64,000 nt of DNA from Eledone cirrhosa (taxonomy: Eukaryota), in the NCBI GenBank assembly GCA_964016885.1, contig OZ024746.1, positions 99,138,001 through 99,202,000 on the forward strand. Direction: 5' to 3'. The position numbers and the translations under genes were made by a program. Under the pieces are notes generated by a model that was not told the DNA's origin, did no database searches, and saw only the letters and a program-made list of their open reading frames with translations. Shown here in pieces: positions 7,255-45,216 of this stretch. Position 1 is the stretch's first letter; the number at the start of each line of letters is the position of its first letter.

Positions 7255-7900
7255 CATCGCTTGTGACGCTAAACTCCGCCAGTTGCAGACTCCGCATCAA
7301 CACGAGATATCTTTCTCCACAAAGTTCGATAGACAGCATCAGAGTTCAGAGAGCAAAGATCAAGGCCAGTCCATAAGTTGACATTATCAAGCCATCGTTT
7401 GGGCTGCCGGCCTCTGCTTCTCTTATCAGCCAACCTTCCTTCCAGACATAACCTACTCACACCACAAGTTGATCTTTTTATATGGCCGTATAGTTTGAGT
7501 ACTCTTGACCTGACAATTGATGTAATTGGTCTAAGTCTGGTAATGTTGACCAGCTCACTGATACAGATACGGTCACTGAGCTGCTTGCCAGTCATAAATC
7601 TCATGATGTGGTTCTGGAATGTAGAGAGCTTCTGAAGTGACCTTGTCGTCCAGTTAACACAGTCAAGACCATATAACACAACTGGTAGGATGTCAGTATT
7701 GAAGATCTTAGCCTTCAAATGATAGGAAACTCGTTTTGATGTTAGTACTTCCTTGTTCTTGTTGAAAGCTGCCCAACCTAGAGCGTTCGATATTGCGCAG
7801 CAACCATTCCATTGTTGTTTGATGATAGTTTCTGACCCAGATATACAAACTCCATAACTTGAGCAATTTGCTGGTCGTAGATTGTGAGTTGGAGACTGGC
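7255..7900 (-). mobile_element. RTE-clade LINE 3' fragment (RT C-terminus), decayed
   Basis: QVMEFVYLGQ, KAKIFNTDILPVVLYG, LKLYGHIKR, RSRGRQPKRWLDNV motifs; frameshifted. Confidence 0.85.
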
Positions 7901-7913
7901 ATTATTTTTACCA

Positions 7914-11074: not shown

Positions 11075-11294
11075 GTTGAGACAATCAGATGGAAAGTAGT
11101 ATAGTATTACACTGGTAACTTTATTTTCTTCAAATCTGAAGGATAAATGGTAAAGTCGGTCCCTGAAAGGTTTGAACTCAGGGCGTAAAAGGATATAAGT
11201 GCACACCGCAAGACACTTGTTTCGATGCACTGTCGATATTGTCTGTCCACCTCCACCAATATATTAATTACATTCACTGTTTCTAATTGCATCT

Positions 11295-12480
11295 GACCGC
11301 TGACTACATTTCTACCCTCCACCTCATTATCGAAAGATCTCGGGAGTTCCAAAAAGATCGCTGCCTCTACGTCGCCTTCGTCGACCTCAAGGCGGCTTTC
11401 GACACGGTCGACCACGCATCCCTCTGGAAAATTCTCCAGCTTGTTGGCTCACCTCCCAAGATCACCACCCCATTCCAGCAGCTCTATAGCAGTGCTTAGA
11501 GCTGTGTGTGGGTGAACGGGAGGGACTCCGACTGGTTCCCCATCAACTGCGGGTCAGACAGGGCTGTGAGGCTTTCTTAGACCTCTTCAACTGTGTCATC
11601 GATTATTTGATGACCAAGCTCTGTGAGCAATTTTCTGGCGTTGCCTTCGGGAATAACCATCTAACCGACCTGGAGTACGCAGACTACACCACTCTATTCA
11701 GTAACTCGATCAATCATCTCAGATACGCCATATACCGTGAGGAATCAGCCAAGCTCAGCCTTCGGGTAAGCTGGGCGAAGACAAAGCTGATGCGTGTCAG
11801 CAATGGTCCGGATCCTACTCCGTTTCATATTGGCCCCGGAGTTTGTCAGCTCCTTCATTTACTTGGATTCGACTGTCACCCGCAATGGAGACCTGTACCG
11901 GATATCAACCACAGATGTGACCTGGAGGCCGCTGTTATGCACTCCCTATAGCAGCCCTTTAGGAGCCATAACACAATCTCCCAGAAGACGAAGCTCCGTA
12001 TTTACAATGCATCGGTCCTATCCGTTCTCCTCTATAGAGCAGAAACGTGGTCTCTCACAAAGTACCTGGCAATGAGGATTGACAGCTTCGATAGCAGAAA
12101 CCTGAGAATCATCAAAAATATCAGATGGACCACCATGTTTCCAACAAAGTGTCCAACAAAGTGTCTGCGCACGCATCAGCCCACAGCTTCCCGCCTCATA
12201 GCTCTCTGCCGATGGGCTGGTATGGACATATCCTCCGCTTTCCACCAGATCATCCTACCAGGGCCTTACTTCTTGTTGGACGCAGTGGCTGTAGGCCGGA
12301 AAACCCCGTGGCAAGCCGCGCACCAGATGGCTGGATATCTTCAAGGAAAACCTTTGGAAGCTTGACATCACCTTGGAGGAGCAGAGGAGCTGATACGGGA
12401 CCGCCAATGATGTAAGGCGGTGGTGGAGCTGATTGTCACCATCGCTGGCTTAGGATGACGTCGAGCAAGAAGAAGAAAAG
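11295..12480 (+). mobile_element. RTE/RTEX-type LINE, 5'-truncated RT pseudogene
   Basis: YVAFVDLKAAFDTVDH, VRQGC, LTDLEYADY, VSWAKTKLM, WYGHILR motifs; stops and frameshifts; ends in caagaagaagaa. Confidence 0.9.
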
Positions 12481-23660: not shown

Positions 23661-24575
23661 GGCGAATTGGCAGAGTGGTTAGAACGTCAGATAGAATGGT
23701 AGAGTGGTTAGAACGTCAGATAGAATGGTAGAGTGGTTAGAACGTCAGATAGAATGGTAGAGTGGTTAGAACGTCAGATAGAATGGCAGAGTGGTTAGAA
23801 CGTCAGATAGAATGGCAGAGTGGTTAGAACGTCAGATAGAATGGTAGAGTGGTTAAAACGTCAGATAGAATGGTAGAGTGGTTAGAACGTCAGATAGAAT
23901 GGCAGAGTGGTTAGAACGTCAGATAGAATGGTAGAGTGGTTAGAACGTCAGATAGAATGACAGAGTCGTTAGAACGTCACATAGAATGGTAGAGTGGTTA
24001 GAACGTCAGATAGAATGGTAGAGTGGTTAAAACGTCAGATAGAATGGTAGAGTGGTTAGAACGTCAGATAGAATGGTAGAGTGATTAGAACGTCAGGTAG
24101 AATGGCAGAGTGGTTAGAACGTTAGATAGAATGGTAGAGTGGTTAGAACGTTAGATAGAATGGTAGAGTGGTTAGAACGTCAGATAGAATGGTAGAGTGG
24201 TTAGAACGTCAGATAGAATGGCAGAGTCGTTAGAACGTCAGATAGAATGGTAGAGTCGTTAGAACGTCACATAGAATGCTTTATGGTATTCGTTCCGGCT
24301 TTCTGCTCTCTGAGTTCAAATCCCACCGAGGTCAACTTTGCCTTTCATCCTTTCAAGGTCGATTAAAAAAAGTACCAGTCTAGTACTGGGGTCGATTCTT
24401 CCTCTATATCTCTTCCTCATTTCCTCTCTCTCACTTTCTATCTTTCCCTGGAAGAAATCCGCTGTACTCAGGCCTGGAGACAGGTGGGTTCTGCTACGTT
24501 TTAAATGCCCAAGAAACGTCGAATGTCAATACGACATCCCTAAAACTCTATCAGGAGAGTTACGGATCCATACTA
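23661..24575 (+). mobile_element. tRNA-SINE (subfamily B) with its 29-bp A-box segment amplified ~21x (23669-24278)
   Basis: Unit ggtagagtggttagaacgtcagatagaat; unamplified relatives at 35893 and 50905; B-box follows the array. Confidence 0.9.
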
Positions 24576-29555: not shown

Positions 29556-29731
29556 TTTTATGGCAGTCAATAATAAACCTGCAAAGTAAGCAGTTCAAGT
29601 TGGCAAGTCAATAAATAACAAGAAATAAACAAATGTTTATACTCAATAGAGGTTTCACTGAGAAAGTGGGCTTAAAAAGCATTGATAATTACATAAATAT
29701 TGAAAAGAAGGATAAAAGAAATTTAAGTAAT

Positions 29732-32700
29732 GAGAAAAAGGGGAAGGGGTAAAGAAGGGCAGATTTGGCTATGAGAGAAAAAGGAAGGGGTAAAGAAGGG
29801 CAGATTTGGCTATGAGAGAAAGGGGAAGGGGTAAAGAAGGGCAGATTTGGCTATGAGAGAAAAAGGAAGGGGTAAAGAAGGACAGATCTGGCTATGAGAG
29901 AAAGGGGAAGGGGTAAAGAAGGGCAGATTTGGCTATGAGAAAAAGGGGAAGGGGTAAAGAAGGGCAGATTTGGCTATGAGAGAAAGGGGAAGGGGTAAAG
30001 AAGGACAGATCTGGCTATGAGAGAAAGAGGAAGGGGTAAAGAAGGACAGATCTGGCTATGAGAGAAAGGGGAAGGGGTAAAGAAGGGCAGATTTGGCTAT
30101 GAGAAAAAGGGGAAGGGTTAAAGAAGGACAGATCTGGCTATGAGAGAAAGGGGTAGGGGTAACGAAGGGCAGATTTGGCTATGAGAGAAAGGGGAAGGGG
30201 TAAAGAAGGACAGATCTGGCTATGAGAGAAAGAGGAAGGGGTAAAGAAGGGCAGATTTGGCTATGAGAGAAAGGGGAAGGGGGTAAAGAAGGGCAGATTT
30301 GGCTATGAGAAAAAGGGGAAGGGGTAAAGAAGGACAGATTTGGCTATGAGAGAAAGAGAAAGGGGTAAAGAAGGACAGATCTGGCTGTGAGAGAAAGGGG
30401 AAGGGGGTAAAAAAGGGCAGATTTGGCTATGAGAAAAAGGGGAAGGGGTAAAGAAGGACAGATTTGGCTATGAGAGAAAGGGGAAGGGGTAAAGAAGGGC
30501 AGATTTGGCTATGAGAGAAAGAGAAAGGGGTAAAGAAGGGCAGATTTGGCTATGAGAGAAAGGGGAAGGGGTAAAGAAGGGCAGATTTGGCTATGAGAGA
30601 AAGAGAAAGGGGTAAAGAAGGGTAGATTTGGCTATGAGAGAAAGGGGAAGGGGTAAAGAAGGACAGATCTGGCTATGAGAGAAAGAGGAAGGGGTAAAGA
30701 AGGACAGATCTGGCTATCAGAGAAAGGGGAAGGGGGTAAAAAAGGGCAGATTTGGCTATGAGAAAAAGGGGAAGGGGTAAAGAAGGGCAGATTTGGCTAT
30801 CAGAGAAAGGGGAAGGGGGTAAAAAAGGGCAGATTTGGCTATGAGAAAAAGGGGAAGGGGTAAAGAAGGGCAGATTTGGCTATGAGAAAAAGGGGAAGGG
30901 GTAAAAAAGGGCAGATTTGGCTATGAGAGAAAGGGGAAGGGGTAATGAAGGGCAGATTTGGCTATGAGAGAAAGGGGAAGGGGTATAGAAGGGAAGATTT
31001 GGCTATGAGAGAAAGGGGAAGGGGCAAAGAAGGACAGATCTGGCTATGAGAGAAAGAGGAAGGGGTAAAGAAGGACAGATCTGGCTATGAGAGAAAGAGG
31101 AAGGGGTAAAGAAGGAGAGATCTGGCTATGAGAGAAAGAGGAAGGGGTAAAGAAGGACAGATCTGGCTATGAGAGAAAGGGGAAGGGGGTAAAAAAGGGC
31201 AGATTTGGCTATGAGAAAAAGAGGAAGGGGTAAAGAAGGACAGATCTGGCTATGAGAGAAAGGGGAAGGGGTAAAGAAGGACAGATCTGGCTATGAGAAA
31301 AAGAGGAAGGGGTAAAGAAGGACAGATCTGGCTATGAGAGAAAGAGGAAGGGGTAAAGAAGGAGAGATCTGGCTATGAGAGAAAGAGGAAGGGGTAGAGA
31401 AGAGCAGATTTGGCTATGAGAAAAAGGGGAAGGGGTAAAAAAGGGCAGATTTGGCTATGAGAGAAAGGGGAAGGGGTAAAGAAGGGCAGATTTGGCTATG
31501 AGAGAAAGGGGAAGGGGTAAAGAAGGGCAGATTTGGCTATGAGAAAAAGGGGAAGGGGTAAAGAAGGGCAGATTTGGCTATGAGAAAAAGGGGAAGGGGT
31601 AAAAAAGGGCAGATTTGGCTATGAGAGAAAGGGGAAGGGGTAAAGAAGGGCAGATTTGGCTATGAGAGAAAGGGGAAGGGGTAAAGAAGGGCAGATTTGG
31701 CTATGAGAGAAAGGGGAAGGGGTAAAGAAGGGCAGATCTGGCTATGAGAGAAAGAGGAAGGGGTAAAGAAGGAGAGATCTGGCTATGAGAGAAAGAGGAA
31801 GGGGTAAAGAAGGACAGATCTGGCTATGAGAGAAAGAGGAAGGGGTAAAGATGGACAGATCTGGCTATGAGAGAAAGAGGAAGGGGTAAAGAAGGAGAGA
31901 TCTGGCTATGAGAGAAAGGGGAAGGGGTAAAGAAGGACAGATCTGGCTATGAGAAAAAGAGGAAGGGGTAAAAAAGGACAGATCTGGCTATGAGAGAAAG
32001 AGGAAGGGGTAAAGAAGGAGAGATCTGGCTATGAGAGAAAGAGGAAGGGGTAAAGAAGGACAGATCTGGCTATGAGAGAAAGGGGAAGGGGTAAAGAAGG
32101 GCAGATCTGGCTATGAGGGAAAGGGGAAGGGGTAAAGAAGGGCAGATTTGGCTATGAGAAAAGGGGGAAGGGGTAAAGAAGGGCAGATTTGGCTATGAGA
32201 GAAAGAGGATGGGGTAAAGAAGGAGAGATCTGGCTATGAGAGAAAGAGGAAGGGGTAAAGAAGGACAGATCTGGCTATGAGAGAAAGGGGAAGGGGTAAA
32301 GAAGGACAGATCTGGCTATGAGAGAAAGAGGAAGGGGTAAAGAAGGACAGATCTGGCTATGAGAGAAAGAGGAAGGGGTAAAGAAGGAGAGATCTGGCTA
32401 TGAGAGAAAGGGGAAGGGGTAAAGAAGGGCAGATCTGGCTATGAGAGAAAGAGGAAGGGGTAAAGAAGGAGAGATCTGGCTATGAGAGAAAGAGGAAGGG
32501 GTAAAGAAGGACAGATCTGGCTATGAGAGAAAGGGGAAGGGGTAAAGAAGGACAGATCTGGCTATGAGAAAAAGAGGAAGGGGTAAAAAAGGACAGATCT
32601 GGCTATGAGAGAAAGAGGAAGGGGTAAAGAAGGAGAGATCTGGCTATGAGAGAAAGAGGAAGGGGTAAGAAGGACAGATCTGGCTATGAGAGAAAGGGGA

Positions 32701-33423
32701 AGGGGTAAAGAAGGGCAGATCTGGCTATGAGGGAAAGGGGAAGGGGTAAAGAAGGGCAGATTTGGCTATGAGAAAAGGGGGAAGGGGTAAAGAAGGGCAG
32801 ATTTGGCTATGAGAGAAAGAGGAAGGGGTAAAGAAGGAGAGATCTGGCTATGAGAGAAAGAGGAAGGGGTAAAGAAGGACAGATCTGGCTATGAGAGAAA
32901 GGGAAGGGGTAAAGAAGGACAGATCTGGCTATGAGAGAAAGAGGAAGGGGTAAAGAAGGAGAGATCTGGCTATGAGAGAAAGGGGAAGGGGTAAAGAAGG
33001 GCAGATCTGGCTATGAGAAAAAGAGGAAGGGGTAAAAAAGGACAGATCTGGCTATGAGAGAAAGGGGAAGGGGTAAAGAAGGACAGATCTGGCTATGAGA
33101 AAAAGAGGAAGGGGTAAAAAAGGACAGATCTGGCTATGAGAAAAAGAGGAAGGGGTAAAAAAGGACAGATCTGGCTATGAGAAAAAGAGGAAGGGGTAAA
33201 AAAGGACAGATCTGGCTATGAGAGAAAGAGGAAGGGGTAAAGAAGGAGAGATCTGGCTATGAGAGAAAGAGGAAGGGGTAAAGAAGGACAGATCTGGCTA
33301 TGAGAGAAAGGGGAAGGGGTAAAGAAGGGCAGATCTGGCTATGAGGGAAAGGGGAAGGGGTAAAGAAGGGCAGATTTGGCTATGAGAAAAGGGGGAAGGG
33401 GTAAAGAAGGGCAGATTTGGCTG
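29732..33423. repeat. 41-bp purine-rich minisatellite, ~90 copies
   Basis: Unit gagagaaaggggaaggggtaaagaagggcagatttggctat; period 41 (29761 to 29802). Confidence 0.98.
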
Positions 33424-39691: not shown

Positions 39692-40126
39692 GTGGGTGTG
39701 AAAAAATGAGAATGTTTCTAAGCTATGATACGTTCCATTTCAGTCATACAATGTTTTATTGCACTTGTTGACATTGCTGGCTTCTCCGTCTGTAGATTGA
39801 AACTGAAGTTAACTTCCTGTTTACAAGGCCTAAAATTGAAATATAGGAAAGCGAGAACTAAAAGTAACTTCTCAACAATTGCAACGATATCCTAAACAGC
39901 ATTACGATGGGAGCCTATGAGTTGGCAAGTTCCTGATGTAAACGATATGTGTAGAAAGGAAAGTCTGACAGGATATATTGGTAAGGATATACCCCCGCAA
40001 AATTTGCGAAATAAACAAGTTGAAACAAGGAAACTTATGGAGAGTTTGAATGCATTAATCCAGAATAAAAGTTGTATGATTTGTGATTTCACAAACTTGA
40101 AACAATAGATTGAGAACATAATATTA

Positions 40127-40345
40127 ATTGTTTCTTATATAGGCACAAGGCCAGTAATTTGGGGAGAGGGGAAAGTCGATTAAATCGACCCCCCTGCATT
40201 ACTGGTACTTTATTTTATCGACCCCATAAGGATGAAAGGCAAAGTTAACCTCGGCGGGATTTGAGCTCAGATCATAAAGAGCCGTAACTCTATGCTGCAA
40301 AGCATGGCGTCCAACCTTCTACCGATACTGCCAATCCACCGCCCT
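40127..40345 (-). mobile_element. tRNA-SINE (main family)
   Basis: Full-length reverse complement. Confidence 0.9.
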
Positions 40346-40385: not shown

Positions 40386-41960
40386 GGAAGCAAGTGGCCT
40401 AGTGGTAAGGGTGTAGGACTTATCAAGTGACCTAGTGGTAAGGGTGTAGGACTTATCAAGTGACCTAGTGGTAAGGGTGTAGGACTTATCAAGTGACCTA
40501 GTGGTAAGGGTGTAGGACTTATCAAGTGACCTAGTGGTAAGGGTGTTGGACTTATCAAGTGGCCAAGTGGTAAGGGTGTAGGACTTATCAAGTGACCTAG
40601 TGGTAAGGGTGTAGGACTTATCAAGTGACCTAGTGGTAAGGGTGTAGGACTTATCAAGTGACCTAGTGGTAAGGGTGTAGGACTTATCAAGTGACCTAGT
40701 GGTAAGGGTGTTGGACTTATCAAGAGGCCTAGTGGTAAGGGTGTAGGACTTATCAAGTGACCTAGTGGTAAGGGTGTAGGACTTATCAAGTGACCTAGTG
40801 GTAAGGGTGTAGGACTTATCAAGTGACCTAGTGGTAAGGGTGTTGGACTTATCAAGTGGCCTAGTGGTAAGGGTGTTGGACTTATCAAGTGACCTAGTGG
40901 TAAGGGTGTTGGACTTATCAAGTGACCTAGTGGTAAGGGTGTTGGACTTATCAAGTGACCTAGTGGTAAGGGTGTAGGACTTATCAAGTGACCTAGTGGT
41001 AAGGGTGTAGGACTTATCAAGTGGCCTAGTGGTAAGGGTGTAGGACTTATCAAGTGGCCTAGTGGTAAGGGTGTTGGACTTATCAAGTGACCTAGTGGTA
41101 AGGGTGTTGGACTTATCAAGTGACCTAGTGGTAAGGGTGTTGGACTTATCAAGAGGCCTAGTGGTAAGGGTGTAGGACTTATCAAGTGACCTAGTGGTAA
41201 GGGTGTAGGACTTATCAAGTGACCTAGTGGTAAGGGTGTAGGACTTATCAAGTGACCTAGTGGTAAGGGTGTAGGACTTATCAAGTGACCTAGTGGTAAG
41301 GGTGTAGGACTTATCAAGTGGCCTAGTGGTAAGGGTGTAGGACTTATCAAGTGACCTAGTGGTAAGGGTGTTGGACTTATCAAGTGACCTAGTGGTAAGG
41401 GTGTTGGACTTATCAAGTGACCTAGTGGTAAGGGTGTTGGACTTATCAAGTGACCTAGTGGTAAGGGTGTTGGACTTATCAAGTGACCTAGTGGTAAGGG
41501 TGTAGGACTTATCAAGTGGCCTAGTGGTAAGGGTGTTGGACTTATCAAGAGGCCTAGTGGTAAGGGTGTTGGACTTATCAAGTGGCCTAGTGGTAAGGGT
41601 GTTGGATTTATCAAGTGGCCTAGTGGTAAGGGTGTTGGACTTATCAAGTGACCTAGTGGTAAGGGTGTTGGACTTATCAAGAGGCCTAGTGGTAAGGGTG
41701 TTGGACTTATGTCCGTAACGTTGTCGGTTCAATTCCTGGACTGGGTTGTGTTATGTTCTTGAGTAAAACACATCATTTTAAGTCGCTGTAGTTTACTCAA
41801 CTGAAAATGAGTACCAGCAATAACTGGGTGGTTTAGCCCTGTGATGGACTGGCGTCCTGTCCAGGGTACATCTTGTACTCTCAGTCACTGAACGCCACAG
41901 AAACTAGGATATGCTCCGTCCTGATGAACATCCGAACTTGAAACAGACTTTAGACTTAGA
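40386..41960 (+). mobile_element. V-domain-like tRNA-SINE with its 33-bp A-box segment amplified ~40x (40393-41709)
   Basis: Unit gtggcctagtggtaagggtgtaggacttatcaa; then B-box ggttcaattcc, gttcttgagtaaaacac and ccctgtgatggactggcgtcctgtccaggg. Confidence 0.88.
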
Positions 41961-42175
41961 ATATTAGTGTAAAGAAAACTACGAAGAGAGAGAAATTGTT
42001 TTTGCACGAATGAAAACAAATATGCTGAACTTAAAAACAGTAATTCTTAGGTTAATACTCACAAAGAGGACAAAAAACATAAATTGAATGCATTTGGAAA
42101 GAAGAGTTATATTTCAGATGGTAAATAAGAATTTGGAGAGAAGTGTAGTAAACTTATATCATATTAATAAAAAAT

Positions 42176-42961
42176 AATTGTTTCTACTTTTGGCACAAGG
42201 CCAGCAATTATCTCAGTGTATTACTGGTACTTTATTTTATCGACCCCCGTAAGGATGAAAAGCAAAGTTAACCTCGGCGGGATTTGAACTTAGACCAAAA
42301 AGGGCCGTAACTCTATGCTGCAAAGCATGGCGTCCGACCCTCTACTGATACTGCCAATCCCCCGCCTATATTAATAAAAAATAATTGTTTCTACTTTTGG
42401 CACAAGGCCAGCAATTATCCCAGTGTATTACTGGTACTTTATTTTATCGATCCCGTAAGGATGAAAGGCAAAGTTAACCTTGGCAGGATTTGAACTCAGT
42501 CCGTAAAGGGACGTAACTGTGCTGCAAAAAAATAATGTTAGGGCGGTGGATTGGCAGTATCGGTAGAGAGTCGGACACCATGCTTTGTAGCATAGAGTTA
42601 TGGCTCTTTATGATCTGAGTTATAATCCTGCCGAGGTTAACTTTGCTTTTCATCCTTACGTGATCGATAGAATAAAGTACCAGTCACGTACTGGGGTCAA
42701 TTTAATCCACTGCCCCCTCCCTCTCCCTCCAAAAAATTGCTGGCATTATGCCTATACTAGAAAAAATATTAATAAAAAATAATTGTTTCTACTTTTGACA
42801 CAAGGCCATCAAAAACGCAGTGCATTACTGGTACTTTTTTTACCGACCCCGTAAGGATGAAAGGTAAAGTGAAACTCGGCGGATTTGAACTCAGACCGTA
42901 AAAGGCCATAACTCTGTGCTACAGAGCAGGGCGTCCGACGCTCTACCGATACTGCCAATCC
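42176..42961. mobile_element. Cluster of four tRNA-SINE copies (-,-,+,-)
   Basis: 42176-42367, 42382-42527, 42540-42755, 42780-42961. Confidence 0.88.
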
Positions 42962-42978
42962 AAAGAATGATGTTGAAC

Positions 42979-43376: not shown

Positions 43377-45135
43377 GTGTGTGATATTGTCATAGATGAT
43401 ACATATGTGTGTGATATTGTCATATATGATACATATGTGTGTGATATTGTCATATATGATACATATGTGTGTGATATTGTCATAGATGATACATATGTGT
43501 GTAATATTGTCATATATGATACATATGTGTGTAATATTGTCATATATGATACATATGTGTGTGATATTGTCATAGATGATACATATGTGTGTGATATTGT
43601 CATATATGATACATATGTGTGTGATATTGTCATAGATGATACATATGTGTGTGATATTGTCATAGATGATACATATGTGTGTGATATTGTCATATATGAT
43701 ACATATGTGTGATATTGTCATATATGATACATATGTGTGTGATATTGTCATAGATGATACATATGTGTGTGATATTGTCATATGTGTGTGATATTGACCA
43801 TATATGATACATATGTGTGTGGTATTGTCTATATATGATACATATGTGTGTGATATTGTCATAGATGATACATATGTGTGTGGTATTGTCATATATGATA
43901 CATATGTGTGTGGTATTGTCTATATATGATACATATGTGTGTGATATTGTCATAGATGATACATATGTGTGTGGTATTGTTATATATGATACCTACGTGT
44001 GTGATATTGCCATATATGATACATCCGTGTGTGATATTGTCATATATGATACATATGTGTGTGATATTGTGATAGATGATACATATGTGTGTGATATTGT
44101 CATAGATGATACATATGTGTGTTATATTGTCATAGATGATACATATGTGTGTGATATTGTCATATATGATACATATGTGTGTGATATTGTGATAGATGAT
44201 ACATATGTGTGTTATATTGTCATAGATGATACATATGTGTGTTATATTGTCATAGATGGTACATATGTGTGTGATATTGTCATAGATGATACATATGTGT
44301 GTGATATTGTCATATATGATACATATGTGTGTTATATTGTCATAGATGGTACATATGTGTGTGATATTGTCATAGATGATACATATGTGTGTGATATTGT
44401 CATATATGATACATATGTGTGTGATATTGTCATATATGATACATATGTGTGTGATATTGTCATAGATGATACATATGTGTGTGATATTGCCATAGATGAT
44501 ACATATGTGTGTGGTATTGTCTATATATGATACATATGTGTGTGATATTGTCATAGATGATACATATGTGTGTTATATTGTCATAGATGGTACATATGTG
44601 TGTGATATTGTCATAGATGATACATATGTGTGTGATATTGTCATATATGATACATATGTGTGTGATATTGTCATAGATGATACATATGTGTGATATTGTC
44701 ATATATGATACATATGTGTGTGATATTGTCATAGATGATACATATGTGTGTTATATTGTCATAGATAATACATATGTGTGATATTGTCATATATGATACA
44801 TATGTGTGTGATATTGTCATAGATGATACATATGTGTGTTATATTGTCAATATGATACATATGTGTGTGATATTGTCATAGATGATACATATGTGTGTGA
44901 TATTGTCATAGATGATACATATGTGTGTTATATTGTCATATATGATACATATGTGTGTGATATTGTCATATATGATACATATGTGTGTGATATTGTCATA
45001 GATGATACATATGTGTGTGATATTGTCATAGATGATACATATGTGTGTGATATTGTCATAGATGATACATATGTGTGTTATATTGTCATAGATGATACAT
45101 ATGTGTGTTATATTGTCATAGATGATATATACGTG
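43377..45135. repeat. 30-bp minisatellite (gtgtgtgatattgtcatagatgatacatat), ~58 copies
   Basis: Directly visible. Confidence 0.98.
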
Positions 45136-45216
45136 TAAAATTCTTTCACATTTTTTCGGAGAGTTTTAAAATATATTTTAACAGAATATTATTTTTCTTT
45201 TATTATTATTAATAAG

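What the first reader, a model, noticed from the sequence alone, without database searches (positions are those of the whole stretch)
40386..41960. SINE head amplified into a 40-copy array of Pol III A-boxes
Seen: the 33-bp unit is the first part of a tRNA-derived head (tggcctagtggtaagg, A-box/D-arm). The array starts at the SINE 5' end and runs into the single B-box and V-domain-like body. Units vary at few positions (gac/ggc, gta/gtt). Inference: a minisatellite born from a SINE promoter, placing ~40 A-box-like motifs upstream of one B-box, which could alter TFIIIC binding or start-site choice.
Basis: partly seen in the sequence, partly recalled or inferred. Interest (0 to 1): 0.7.

Follow-up and report, generated by a model that had tools for sequence, protein, structure and literature searches.

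The report
Minisatellite grown from a SINE head
A 33-letter piece from the front of one copy of a common short jumping element is repeated 40 times in place; such front ends are duplicated unusually often across this genome, and the array is likely a neutral repeat of a known kind, not a working stack of promoters.

Summary
Real. Exactly 40 copies of a 33-bp unit (40391-41710) equal positions 6-38 of a 285-nt tRNA-type SINE family. The collapsed locus matches the family consensus at 245/282, and read depths match the assembled unit counts. The body is CORE-like, not V-like. The unit junction occurs nowhere else in the genome, so the array grew in place. The promoter reading is weak: 9 of 40 units keep the A-box consensus, both units nearest the single B box are broken, and the body has a T4 run. 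The pattern is general. Heads are duplicated in 4 of 595 matches of this family and 859 of 122,969 of an unrelated SINE, against 0 and 21 B-box duplications. Long head arrays of the second family cluster near chromosome ends, where this locus also lies. In 17 of 34 short head dimers the upstream piece lacks the 5' end that the downstream copy keeps, which hints that seeds form during insertion. SINE-derived tandem repeats are published (reptile sSats, Alu), and this scan has already noted head arrays elsewhere in this genome several times. Low interest for the locus, modest for the seeding route.

The parts
40386..40390 (+). Single-copy 5' leader of the SINE (consensus positions 1-5, GGAAG for GGAGG)
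   Evidence: Alignment of the collapsed locus to the family consensus
40391..41710 (+). 40.0 x 33-bp minisatellite; unit = SINE positions 6-38 (A box through the putative anticodon loop); no microhomology at the TTAT|CAAG junction
   Evidence: junction 17-mer has 38 hits in the genome, all in this array
41616..41626 (+). Consensus-matching A box nearest the B box (99 bp away)
41682..41692 (+). A box at native spacing (33 bp), with its first T changed to A
41726..41736 (+). Single B box, GGTTCAATTCC, same as the family consensus
41747..41815 (+). CORE-like central domain
   Evidence: BivaCORE-SINE2 primer match 19/25 (locus), 21/25 (consensus), 0 of 200 shuffles as good; by-eye likeness to the BivaCORE-SINE2 sequence seen
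41776..41779 (+). T4 run, absent from the consensus; possible Pol III terminator
   Evidence: 15 of 32 family copies also have an internal T4, so this is ordinary decay
41816..41943 (+). 3' body shared by the family; origin and partner LINE not identified
41944..41960 (+). Tail of short (T)TAGAC-like repeats; no convincing target-site duplication found

Best explanation
This is a locus-specific minisatellite made of 40 copies of positions 6-38 of one old CORE-type tRNA SINE copy; it likely grew in place from a single head duplication by DNA-level slippage or unequal exchange in a repeat-prone region near a chromosome end, and is likely without promoter function. Shown: unit identity, copy number, uniqueness of the junction, decay of most A boxes, the genome-wide excess of head duplications, and a higher density of long arrays near the C6 end. 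Inferred: (1) the first duplication arose either during 5' joining at insertion or later in DNA; this locus fits both; (2) growth by local duplication with mixing of variants; (3) neutrality.
For: The junction occurs only here (38 of 38 hits), and the leader and body are single-copy, so the array was not imported. The copy is 13% diverged from the consensus while units are 97% alike and all share the A at SINE position 8: expansion or homogenisation came after the copy's own divergence (inference). Neighbouring units share the A/T variant more than chance (28 of 39, p=0.003), and all four combinations of the two common variants occur. Other head repeats of this family have different units (96x39 bp on C15, 8.8x69 bp on C12, about 8.5x97 bp and 2.3x91 bp on C1), so no unit length or helical phase is kept. 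Tandem repeats cover 27% of 990 kb of interior sample; arrays of 10 or more complex units number 1.7 per 100 kb there, 6.5 near the C6 end and 6.2 in the window. 31 of 40 A boxes, including both nearest the B box, are off consensus. No host-gene Pfam domain in the 140 longest of 248 non-repeat frames of the window, only weak RT-type hits.
Against: The B box is intact. The C15 sister array keeps a perfect A box in 96 of 96 units. The head excess (41-fold in the second family) is not explained by a random minisatellite process. No RNA, chromatin or population data were obtained, so neutrality and length polymorphism are untested. A Pfam blank does not exclude short exons.
Confidence: 0.75

Rival explanations
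1. The seed is made at insertion: on reaching the SINE 5' end, the reverse transcriptase (template jump) or a repair polymerase recopies a short head piece before the cDNA is joined to the target. This yields head dimers in a fraction of a percent of insertions, a few of which later expand. It is compatible with the best explanation and concerns only step 1.
For: Head duplication rates are alike in two unrelated families: 4/595 and 859/122,969, against B-box 0/595 and 21/122,969, and body motifs 1/2802 twice. Among short dimers of the second family on C1, the downstream copy keeps the 5' leader in 34 of 35 (baseline 37 of 56, p=5e-4). In 17 of 34 the upstream piece is 5'-truncated, which plain in-place duplication cannot give. 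None shows the remainder expected from a nested insertion (9 of 34 have a further copy behind, each starting at consensus 1-11, not at the break). The 43 C1 loci outside the 45-bp class show no bias to chromosome ends (6 of 43). Precedent: head fragments added 5' of SINEU-2 copies by template jump or switch (PMC4494074, passages).
Against: The focal array has an intact upstream leader, so it does not need this route. 4 of 34 dimers duplicate flank plus head and share private variants (6 of 60 sites), pointing to DNA-level events. About half of the C1 matches are one recurring 44-45-bp unit, which inflates the 859. Compared stretches are short, and the exact-motif search biases which dimers are seen. 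Ahmed and Liang explain 136 similar Alu cases by recombination at the endonuclease site.
Confidence: 0.35
2. The array acts as an A-box ladder that changes TFIIIC loading or Pol III start choice, or works as an extra-TFIIIC chromatin site.
For: Intact B box; 9 consensus A boxes, two within 99-132 bp of it; 33 bp is about three helical turns (arithmetic). Yeast SNR6 works with boxes 202 bp apart and is modulated by pseudo-A boxes.
Against: The commonest unit types have lost a conserved A-box base. TFIIIC binding was almost abolished with an A box alone, and a pseudo-A-box did not substitute in yeast. Unit lengths in other head arrays range from 29 to 97 bp. T4 run in the body. Any B-box effect would not need the array.
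Confidence: 0.08
3. The unit belongs to a spreading satellite family moved between SINE copies by retrotransposition or gene conversion.
For: True in outline for the neighbouring family: 41 of 84 C1 head duplications fall in the 44-45-bp class, 37 of them within 40 Mb of an end; the window's 29-bp unit recurs on C1 (L188).
Against: The focal junction has no hit outside this array (exact 17-mer, one assembly).
Confidence: 0.04

Closest known systems
SINE-derived satellites (sSat1-3) of squamate reptiles, Vassetzky et al. 2023, PMC10702118 (parts 1-4 of 5 of the text read)
   Same: Tandem units cut from part of a tRNA SINE, a terminal unit running on into the SINE, homogeneous long arrays, independent origins, tendency to chromosome ends, and rare loci with both SINE termini kept.
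   Different: Their units are about 70-290 nt and the major ones form multi-locus families; snake sSat3 holds box B. Here the unit is 33 nt, holds box A only, and is unique to one locus.
TE-derived human minisatellites, including 136 partial-Alu repeats at the 5' end of a full Alu; Ahmed and Liang 2012, PMC3389668 (passages and section 3.4)
   Same: Minisatellites arising inside SINEs, a class with the 5' part duplicated, mostly without flanking direct repeats, expanding by local duplication.
   Different: Alu-derived repeats average about 2.3-2.4 units and the partial Alu about 89 bp; here 40 units of 33 bp.
5' head extensions of crocodilian SINEU-2, Kojima 2015, PMC4494074 (passages)
   Same: A 3'-truncated head fragment placed in front of a full SINE, attributed to template jump or switch; resembles the dimers of the second family here.
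   Different: snRNA-derived heads, often from a different subfamily; no array growth in the passages read.
CORE-SINEs of molluscs (BivaCORE-SINE2; octopus OR1/OR2 named as members), PMC4824008 (passages, supplement parts 1-2 of 4 and a search in it) and PMC4758252 (passages, section 11 part 1)
   Same: Parent element: GGAGGCAC start, A and B boxes, CORE-like centre.

Membership tests
tRNA-derived SINE (parent element) | Dispersed, high-copy short element with shared ends | tested here: met
   5,374 candidates, 40 scored, 41 matches listed; 285-nt consensus from 32 copies; 2,802 exact body-motif matches
tRNA-derived SINE (parent element) | A and B boxes at tRNA-like spacing | tested here: met
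   Consensus TGGCCTAGTGG and GGTTCAATTCC, 33 bp apart; 595 exact A+B matches, 0 for the reversed control
tRNA-derived SINE (parent element) | Detectable tRNA homology of the head | tested here: inconclusive
   ARAGORN 0 genes; Rfam no tRNA hit at E<=10 on 41640-42000; box motifs and likeness to a published SINE head only
tRNA-derived SINE (parent element) | Simple-repeat tail | tested here: met
   Copies end in TTTAGAC/TTAGAC-like repeats
tRNA-derived SINE (parent element) | Target-site duplication | tested here: inconclusive
   Best match a 7-mer AT-rich word about 20 bp upstream of the 5' end; not convincing
tRNA-derived SINE (parent element) | 3' end shared with a partner LINE | not tested
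   No LINE library at hand; not pursued
CORE-SINE superfamily | CORE central domain after the head | tested here: met
   One 25-nt published CORE primer: 21/25 and 19/25, 0 of 200 shuffles, plus by-eye match; the full 60-bp domain was not aligned
V-SINE superfamily | V / Vhc central domain | tested here: not met
   Two BivaV-SINE1 primers match no better than shuffles; BivaV alignments seen are unlike the body by eye. The fish V consensus itself was not available.
SINE-derived satellite (sSat) | Tandem unit shorter than the SINE, at least 4 middle units, terminal unit running into the SINE | tested here: met
   38 middle units; leader upstream, full body downstream
SINE-derived satellite (sSat) | Same unit at many loci (major variants) | tested here: not met
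   Junction unique; fits their minor, locus-specific variants. Met for the 45-bp unit of the neighbouring family.
SINE-derived satellite (sSat) | Bias to chromosome ends | tested here: met
   Locus 3.4 Mb from the end of a 102.6-Mb scaffold; 37 of 41 45-bp-class loci on C1 within 40 Mb of an end, 18% expected. The C15 array is 6.6 Mb from the end of a 45-Mb scaffold, which says little.
VNTR minisatellite | Length polymorphism between individuals | not testable with these tools
   Only one sample holds the locus; the one RAD run laid had no read across it
Active Pol III type 2 promoter | Intact A box 31-93 bp from the B box | tested here: not met
   Units at 33 and 66 bp are mutated; nearest intact at 99 bp; range from yeast tRNA genes
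Active Pol III type 2 promoter | Transcription or factor binding | not testable with these tools
   Needs RNA or ChIP data

The most novel reading that the evidence does not exclude
Retrotransposon insertion itself writes minisatellite seeds: 5' joining leaves a short head duplication in a few per thousand SINE insertions, in two unrelated families alike, and chromosome-end regions then expand these seeds into A-box arrays. This would be a countable route from reverse transcription to minisatellite birth. The genome would also hold natural A-box ladders of different step (33, 39, 45 bp) for testing how far TFIIIC reaches.
Probability: 0.3. Interest if true: 0.55.

Novelty: new member of a known kind. 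Interest (0 to 1): 0.27.

Why it matters
The locus is ordinary: one of many SINE-head minisatellites in a genome where about a quarter of sampled DNA is tandem repeat. What could matter is the rule behind it. How minisatellites start is largely unexplained (94% of human TE-derived cases in PMC3389668). Here heads are duplicated about 40 times more often than the adjacent B-box segment, and half of the short dimers have a shape that plain slippage cannot make. With over 120,000 scorable copies the question is directly countable.

Tried and rejected
tRNA gene: ARAGORN 0, Rfam only a chance NEAT1 hit at E 4.2. Assembly artefact: rejected by depth ratios; a first read-laying on the 5' side was swamped by other SINE copies and told nothing. 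Expression: no RNA holder listed, which is no evidence either way. V or Meta domain: my first guess from memory; V primers failed and CORE fitted; Meta was only compared by eye. Higher-order repeat: longest repeated block of unit types is 4, p=0.77. Hairpin-driven slippage: a unit dimer folds at about -3 kcal/mol as DNA. Microhomology at the focal junction: none. Nested insertion as the cause of head dimers: 0 of 34. The 230x33-bp array at C1:1.46 Mb shares TAGTGGTAAGG but has no SINE leader or body; it dominates the listed hits, so that count (1,100) was not used. Dating dimers by private differences was underpowered (396 sites). The random 990-kb sample held no long head array among about 150 heads, so genome-wide rates rest on exact-motif counts. 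Literature searches listed no paper on cephalopod SINE-head minisatellites; one O. vulgaris repeat paper has no occurrence of 'satellite' in its main text (PMC13282606). Subscription journals are not covered, and supplements were read for one paper only. Also read in passages without changing the verdict: PMC2912911, PMC3774820, PMC9659126, PMC9327148.

Full report
OBSERVATION. TRF finds 40.0 copies of a 33-bp unit at 40391-41710, 97% matches, no indels. All 40 units are 33 bp and five positions vary. Searching the genome with the downstream 246 bases gave 5,374 candidates, of which 40 were scored. From 29 of these loci and the sampled DNA I built a 285-nt consensus (family SA, 32 near-full copies, mean identity 90%). 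With one unit kept, the locus aligns end to end at 245 of 282 bases. The unit is consensus positions 6-38. Five leader bases (GGAAG) precede it once, and B box, body and tail follow once. The junction TTAT|CAAG has no microhomology (read from the sequence). In Logan contigs of three runs of one sample, depth over the unique flank tracks the assembled 31-mer counts: 9.9, 12.7 and 12.6 where 12 are expected, 4.0 where 4, 1.1 where 1. That excludes an assembly artefact but may not be independent of the assembly.

THE PARENT ELEMENT. It has tRNA-type A and B boxes 33 bp apart, though ARAGORN and Rfam do not call a tRNA. Its centre matches a BivaCORE-SINE2 primer (21/25; 0 of 200 shuffles) and not two BivaV-SINE1 primers. 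Its start resembles BivaCORE-SINE2 by eye. It is best called a CORE-type SINE, not V-like. That the host is an octopod is my recollection of such repeats plus an unchecked scan note; no call shows it.

THE PROMOTER CLAIM. By my A-box pattern, which here gives the same units as the TNGNNNANNNG of PMC11724288, 9 of 40 units match. 27 have G3>A and 4 have T1>A. The units 33 and 66 bp from the B box are both mutated, the nearest intact one is 99 bp away, and a T4 run lies at 41776. In yeast, TFIIIC affinity comes mainly from the B box, tRNA spacing is 31-93 bp, and an upstream pseudo-A-box did not replace a mutated A box. Against this, yeast SNR6 spans 202 bp and responds to pseudo-A boxes, and a second array of this family on C15 keeps a perfect A box in 96 of 96 units. 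A function is therefore unsupported, not excluded.

IN-PLACE GROWTH. The junction 17-mer has 38 hits in the 3.0-Gb assembly, all in this array. Units are 97% alike, whereas the copy is 13% from the consensus, and all units share one non-consensus base. Neighbours share the A/T variant in 28 of 39 steps (p=0.003), the A/G variant shows no clustering (p=0.35), and there is no higher-order block (p=0.77). This fits repeated local duplication with mixing (inference).

GENOME CONTEXT. Tandem repeats cover 27% of 99 evenly spaced 10-kb stretches. Complex arrays of 10 or more units number 17 in 990 kb there, 7 in 200 kb at the ends of C1-C5, 13 in 200 kb near the C6 end and 4 in the 64-kb window. The locus lies 3.4 Mb from its scaffold end. 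No long head array was in the interior sample. Head arrays of the second family turned up in two end stretches (L174, three arrays; L188, one) and in the window. Most long arrays match none of the three SINE consensuses (6 of 41 did by direct alignment).

HEAD BIAS. Exact-motif counts, with units of 20-50 bp allowed. Family SA: A box duplicated in 4 of 595 A+B matches, B box in 0 of 595, two body motifs in 1 of 2,802 each; without the focal locus p=0.006. The four are this array, 96x39 bp on C15, 8.8x69 bp on C12 (a unit with both boxes) and a dimer on C19, each with its own unit. Family SB, unrelated and far commoner: head duplicated in 859 of 122,969, B box in 21. These are matches, not loci, and lower bounds. 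Of 84 C1 loci (85 listed matches, one duplicate dropped), 41 fall in the 44-45-bp length class and 37 of those lie within 40 Mb of an end; the other 43 show no end bias (6 of 43). I fetched 70 of the 84: the first 30 listed and 40 that I chose. Of 33 with periods 33-45 bp, TRF gave 3-38 copies for 28, several cut by the locus edge, and nothing for 5.

THE SEED. Among 35 short dimers (periods 33, 41, 44, 45 and three complex loci left out), the downstream copy keeps the 5' leader in 34, against 37 of 56 ordinary copies (p=5e-4). The upstream piece is truncated about as often as ordinary copies (16 of 35 against 19 of 56, p=0.28). In a second pass on 34 (one likely chance match dropped), 17 have a 5'-truncated piece in front of a full copy, 13 an intact leader and 4 duplicate flank plus head; none shows a nested-insertion remainder. 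The first class cannot arise by simple in-place duplication and suggests an event at the 5' junction during insertion, as argued for SINEU-2. The last class suggests DNA-level events, the route proposed for 136 Alu cases. The focal array has an intact leader and fits either. An earlier scan note (e1-10331077) favours post-insertion repair over reverse transcription; my data agree for growth and leave the seed open.

WHAT IS KNOWN. SINE-derived satellites with a terminal unit running into the SINE and a bias to chromosome ends are described in squamates (PMC10702118, parts 1-4 of 5). TE-derived minisatellites are 23% of human ones (PMC3389668, passages and section 3.4). Seven searches listed no paper on such arrays in cephalopods; the library lacks subscription journals, and unseen supplements may bear on this. 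This scan has reported SINE-head arrays elsewhere in this genome in at least seven notes. Those are unchecked AI notes; one gave me the lead to sample chromosome ends.

VERDICT. Observation confirmed; origin from the SINE head supported; promoter role not supported. New member of a known kind, interest 0.27. The residual value lies in the countable head bias and the possible insertion-time seed.

Noticed in passing
window 23668-24278: Second SINE-head array in the window: 21 x 29 bp from the A-box head of an SB-related element. The same unit, with a different 5' flank and about 330 bp of similar 3' sequence, is repeated 19 times near the end of C1 (L188:5727-6279), so the element is longer than my SB consensus.
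   Followed up: partly
L206 (G000:C15, about 38.42 Mb): 96 x 39-bp head array of the same SA family with a perfect A box in all 96 units and an intact body; a better object for a Pol III test than the focal locus.
   Followed up: partly
L211-L235, L290, L296, L299-L301 (G000:C1): Recurring 44-45-bp SB head unit, from the 5' end to just before the first T run, arrayed at many loci with different flanks and concentrated near chromosome ends.
   Followed up: partly
L174 (G000:C6:100.00-100.01 Mb): Three separate SB head arrays within 10 kb (45 bp x 13, 65 bp x 17, 45 bp x 88 or more).
   Followed up: partly
L083, L089, L165, L166, L176, L163: A 48-51-bp segment from the body of family SC (about positions 165-230) forms arrays at many loci: a body hotspot, so the bias is not limited to heads. 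The consensus has a short direct repeat there.
   Followed up: no
window 40125-40342 and 42174-42963: The focal SINE sits in a cluster of five SB copies in mixed orientation; the window has 32 SB hits in 64 kb, about three times the interior density.
   Followed up: no
L207-L208 (G000:C1, about 1.46-1.47 Mb): 230 x 33-bp array containing TAGTGGTAAGG but with no SINE leader or body; an A-box look-alike of unknown origin.
   Followed up: partly
window 29730-33422 and 43377-45136: Two further long minisatellites (90 x 41 bp, 59 x 30 bp); the first matched none of the three SINE consensuses, the second was not tested.
   Followed up: no
window 7272-7901 (-) and 11287-12362 (+): Decayed non-LTR retrotransposon fragments (weak RVT_1 and DUF6451 hits, below the curated cut-offs).
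   Followed up: no
family consensuses SA and SC: Two SINE families share the head and CORE-like part (about 145 nt) but have different 3' halves: modular exchange.
   Followed up: no
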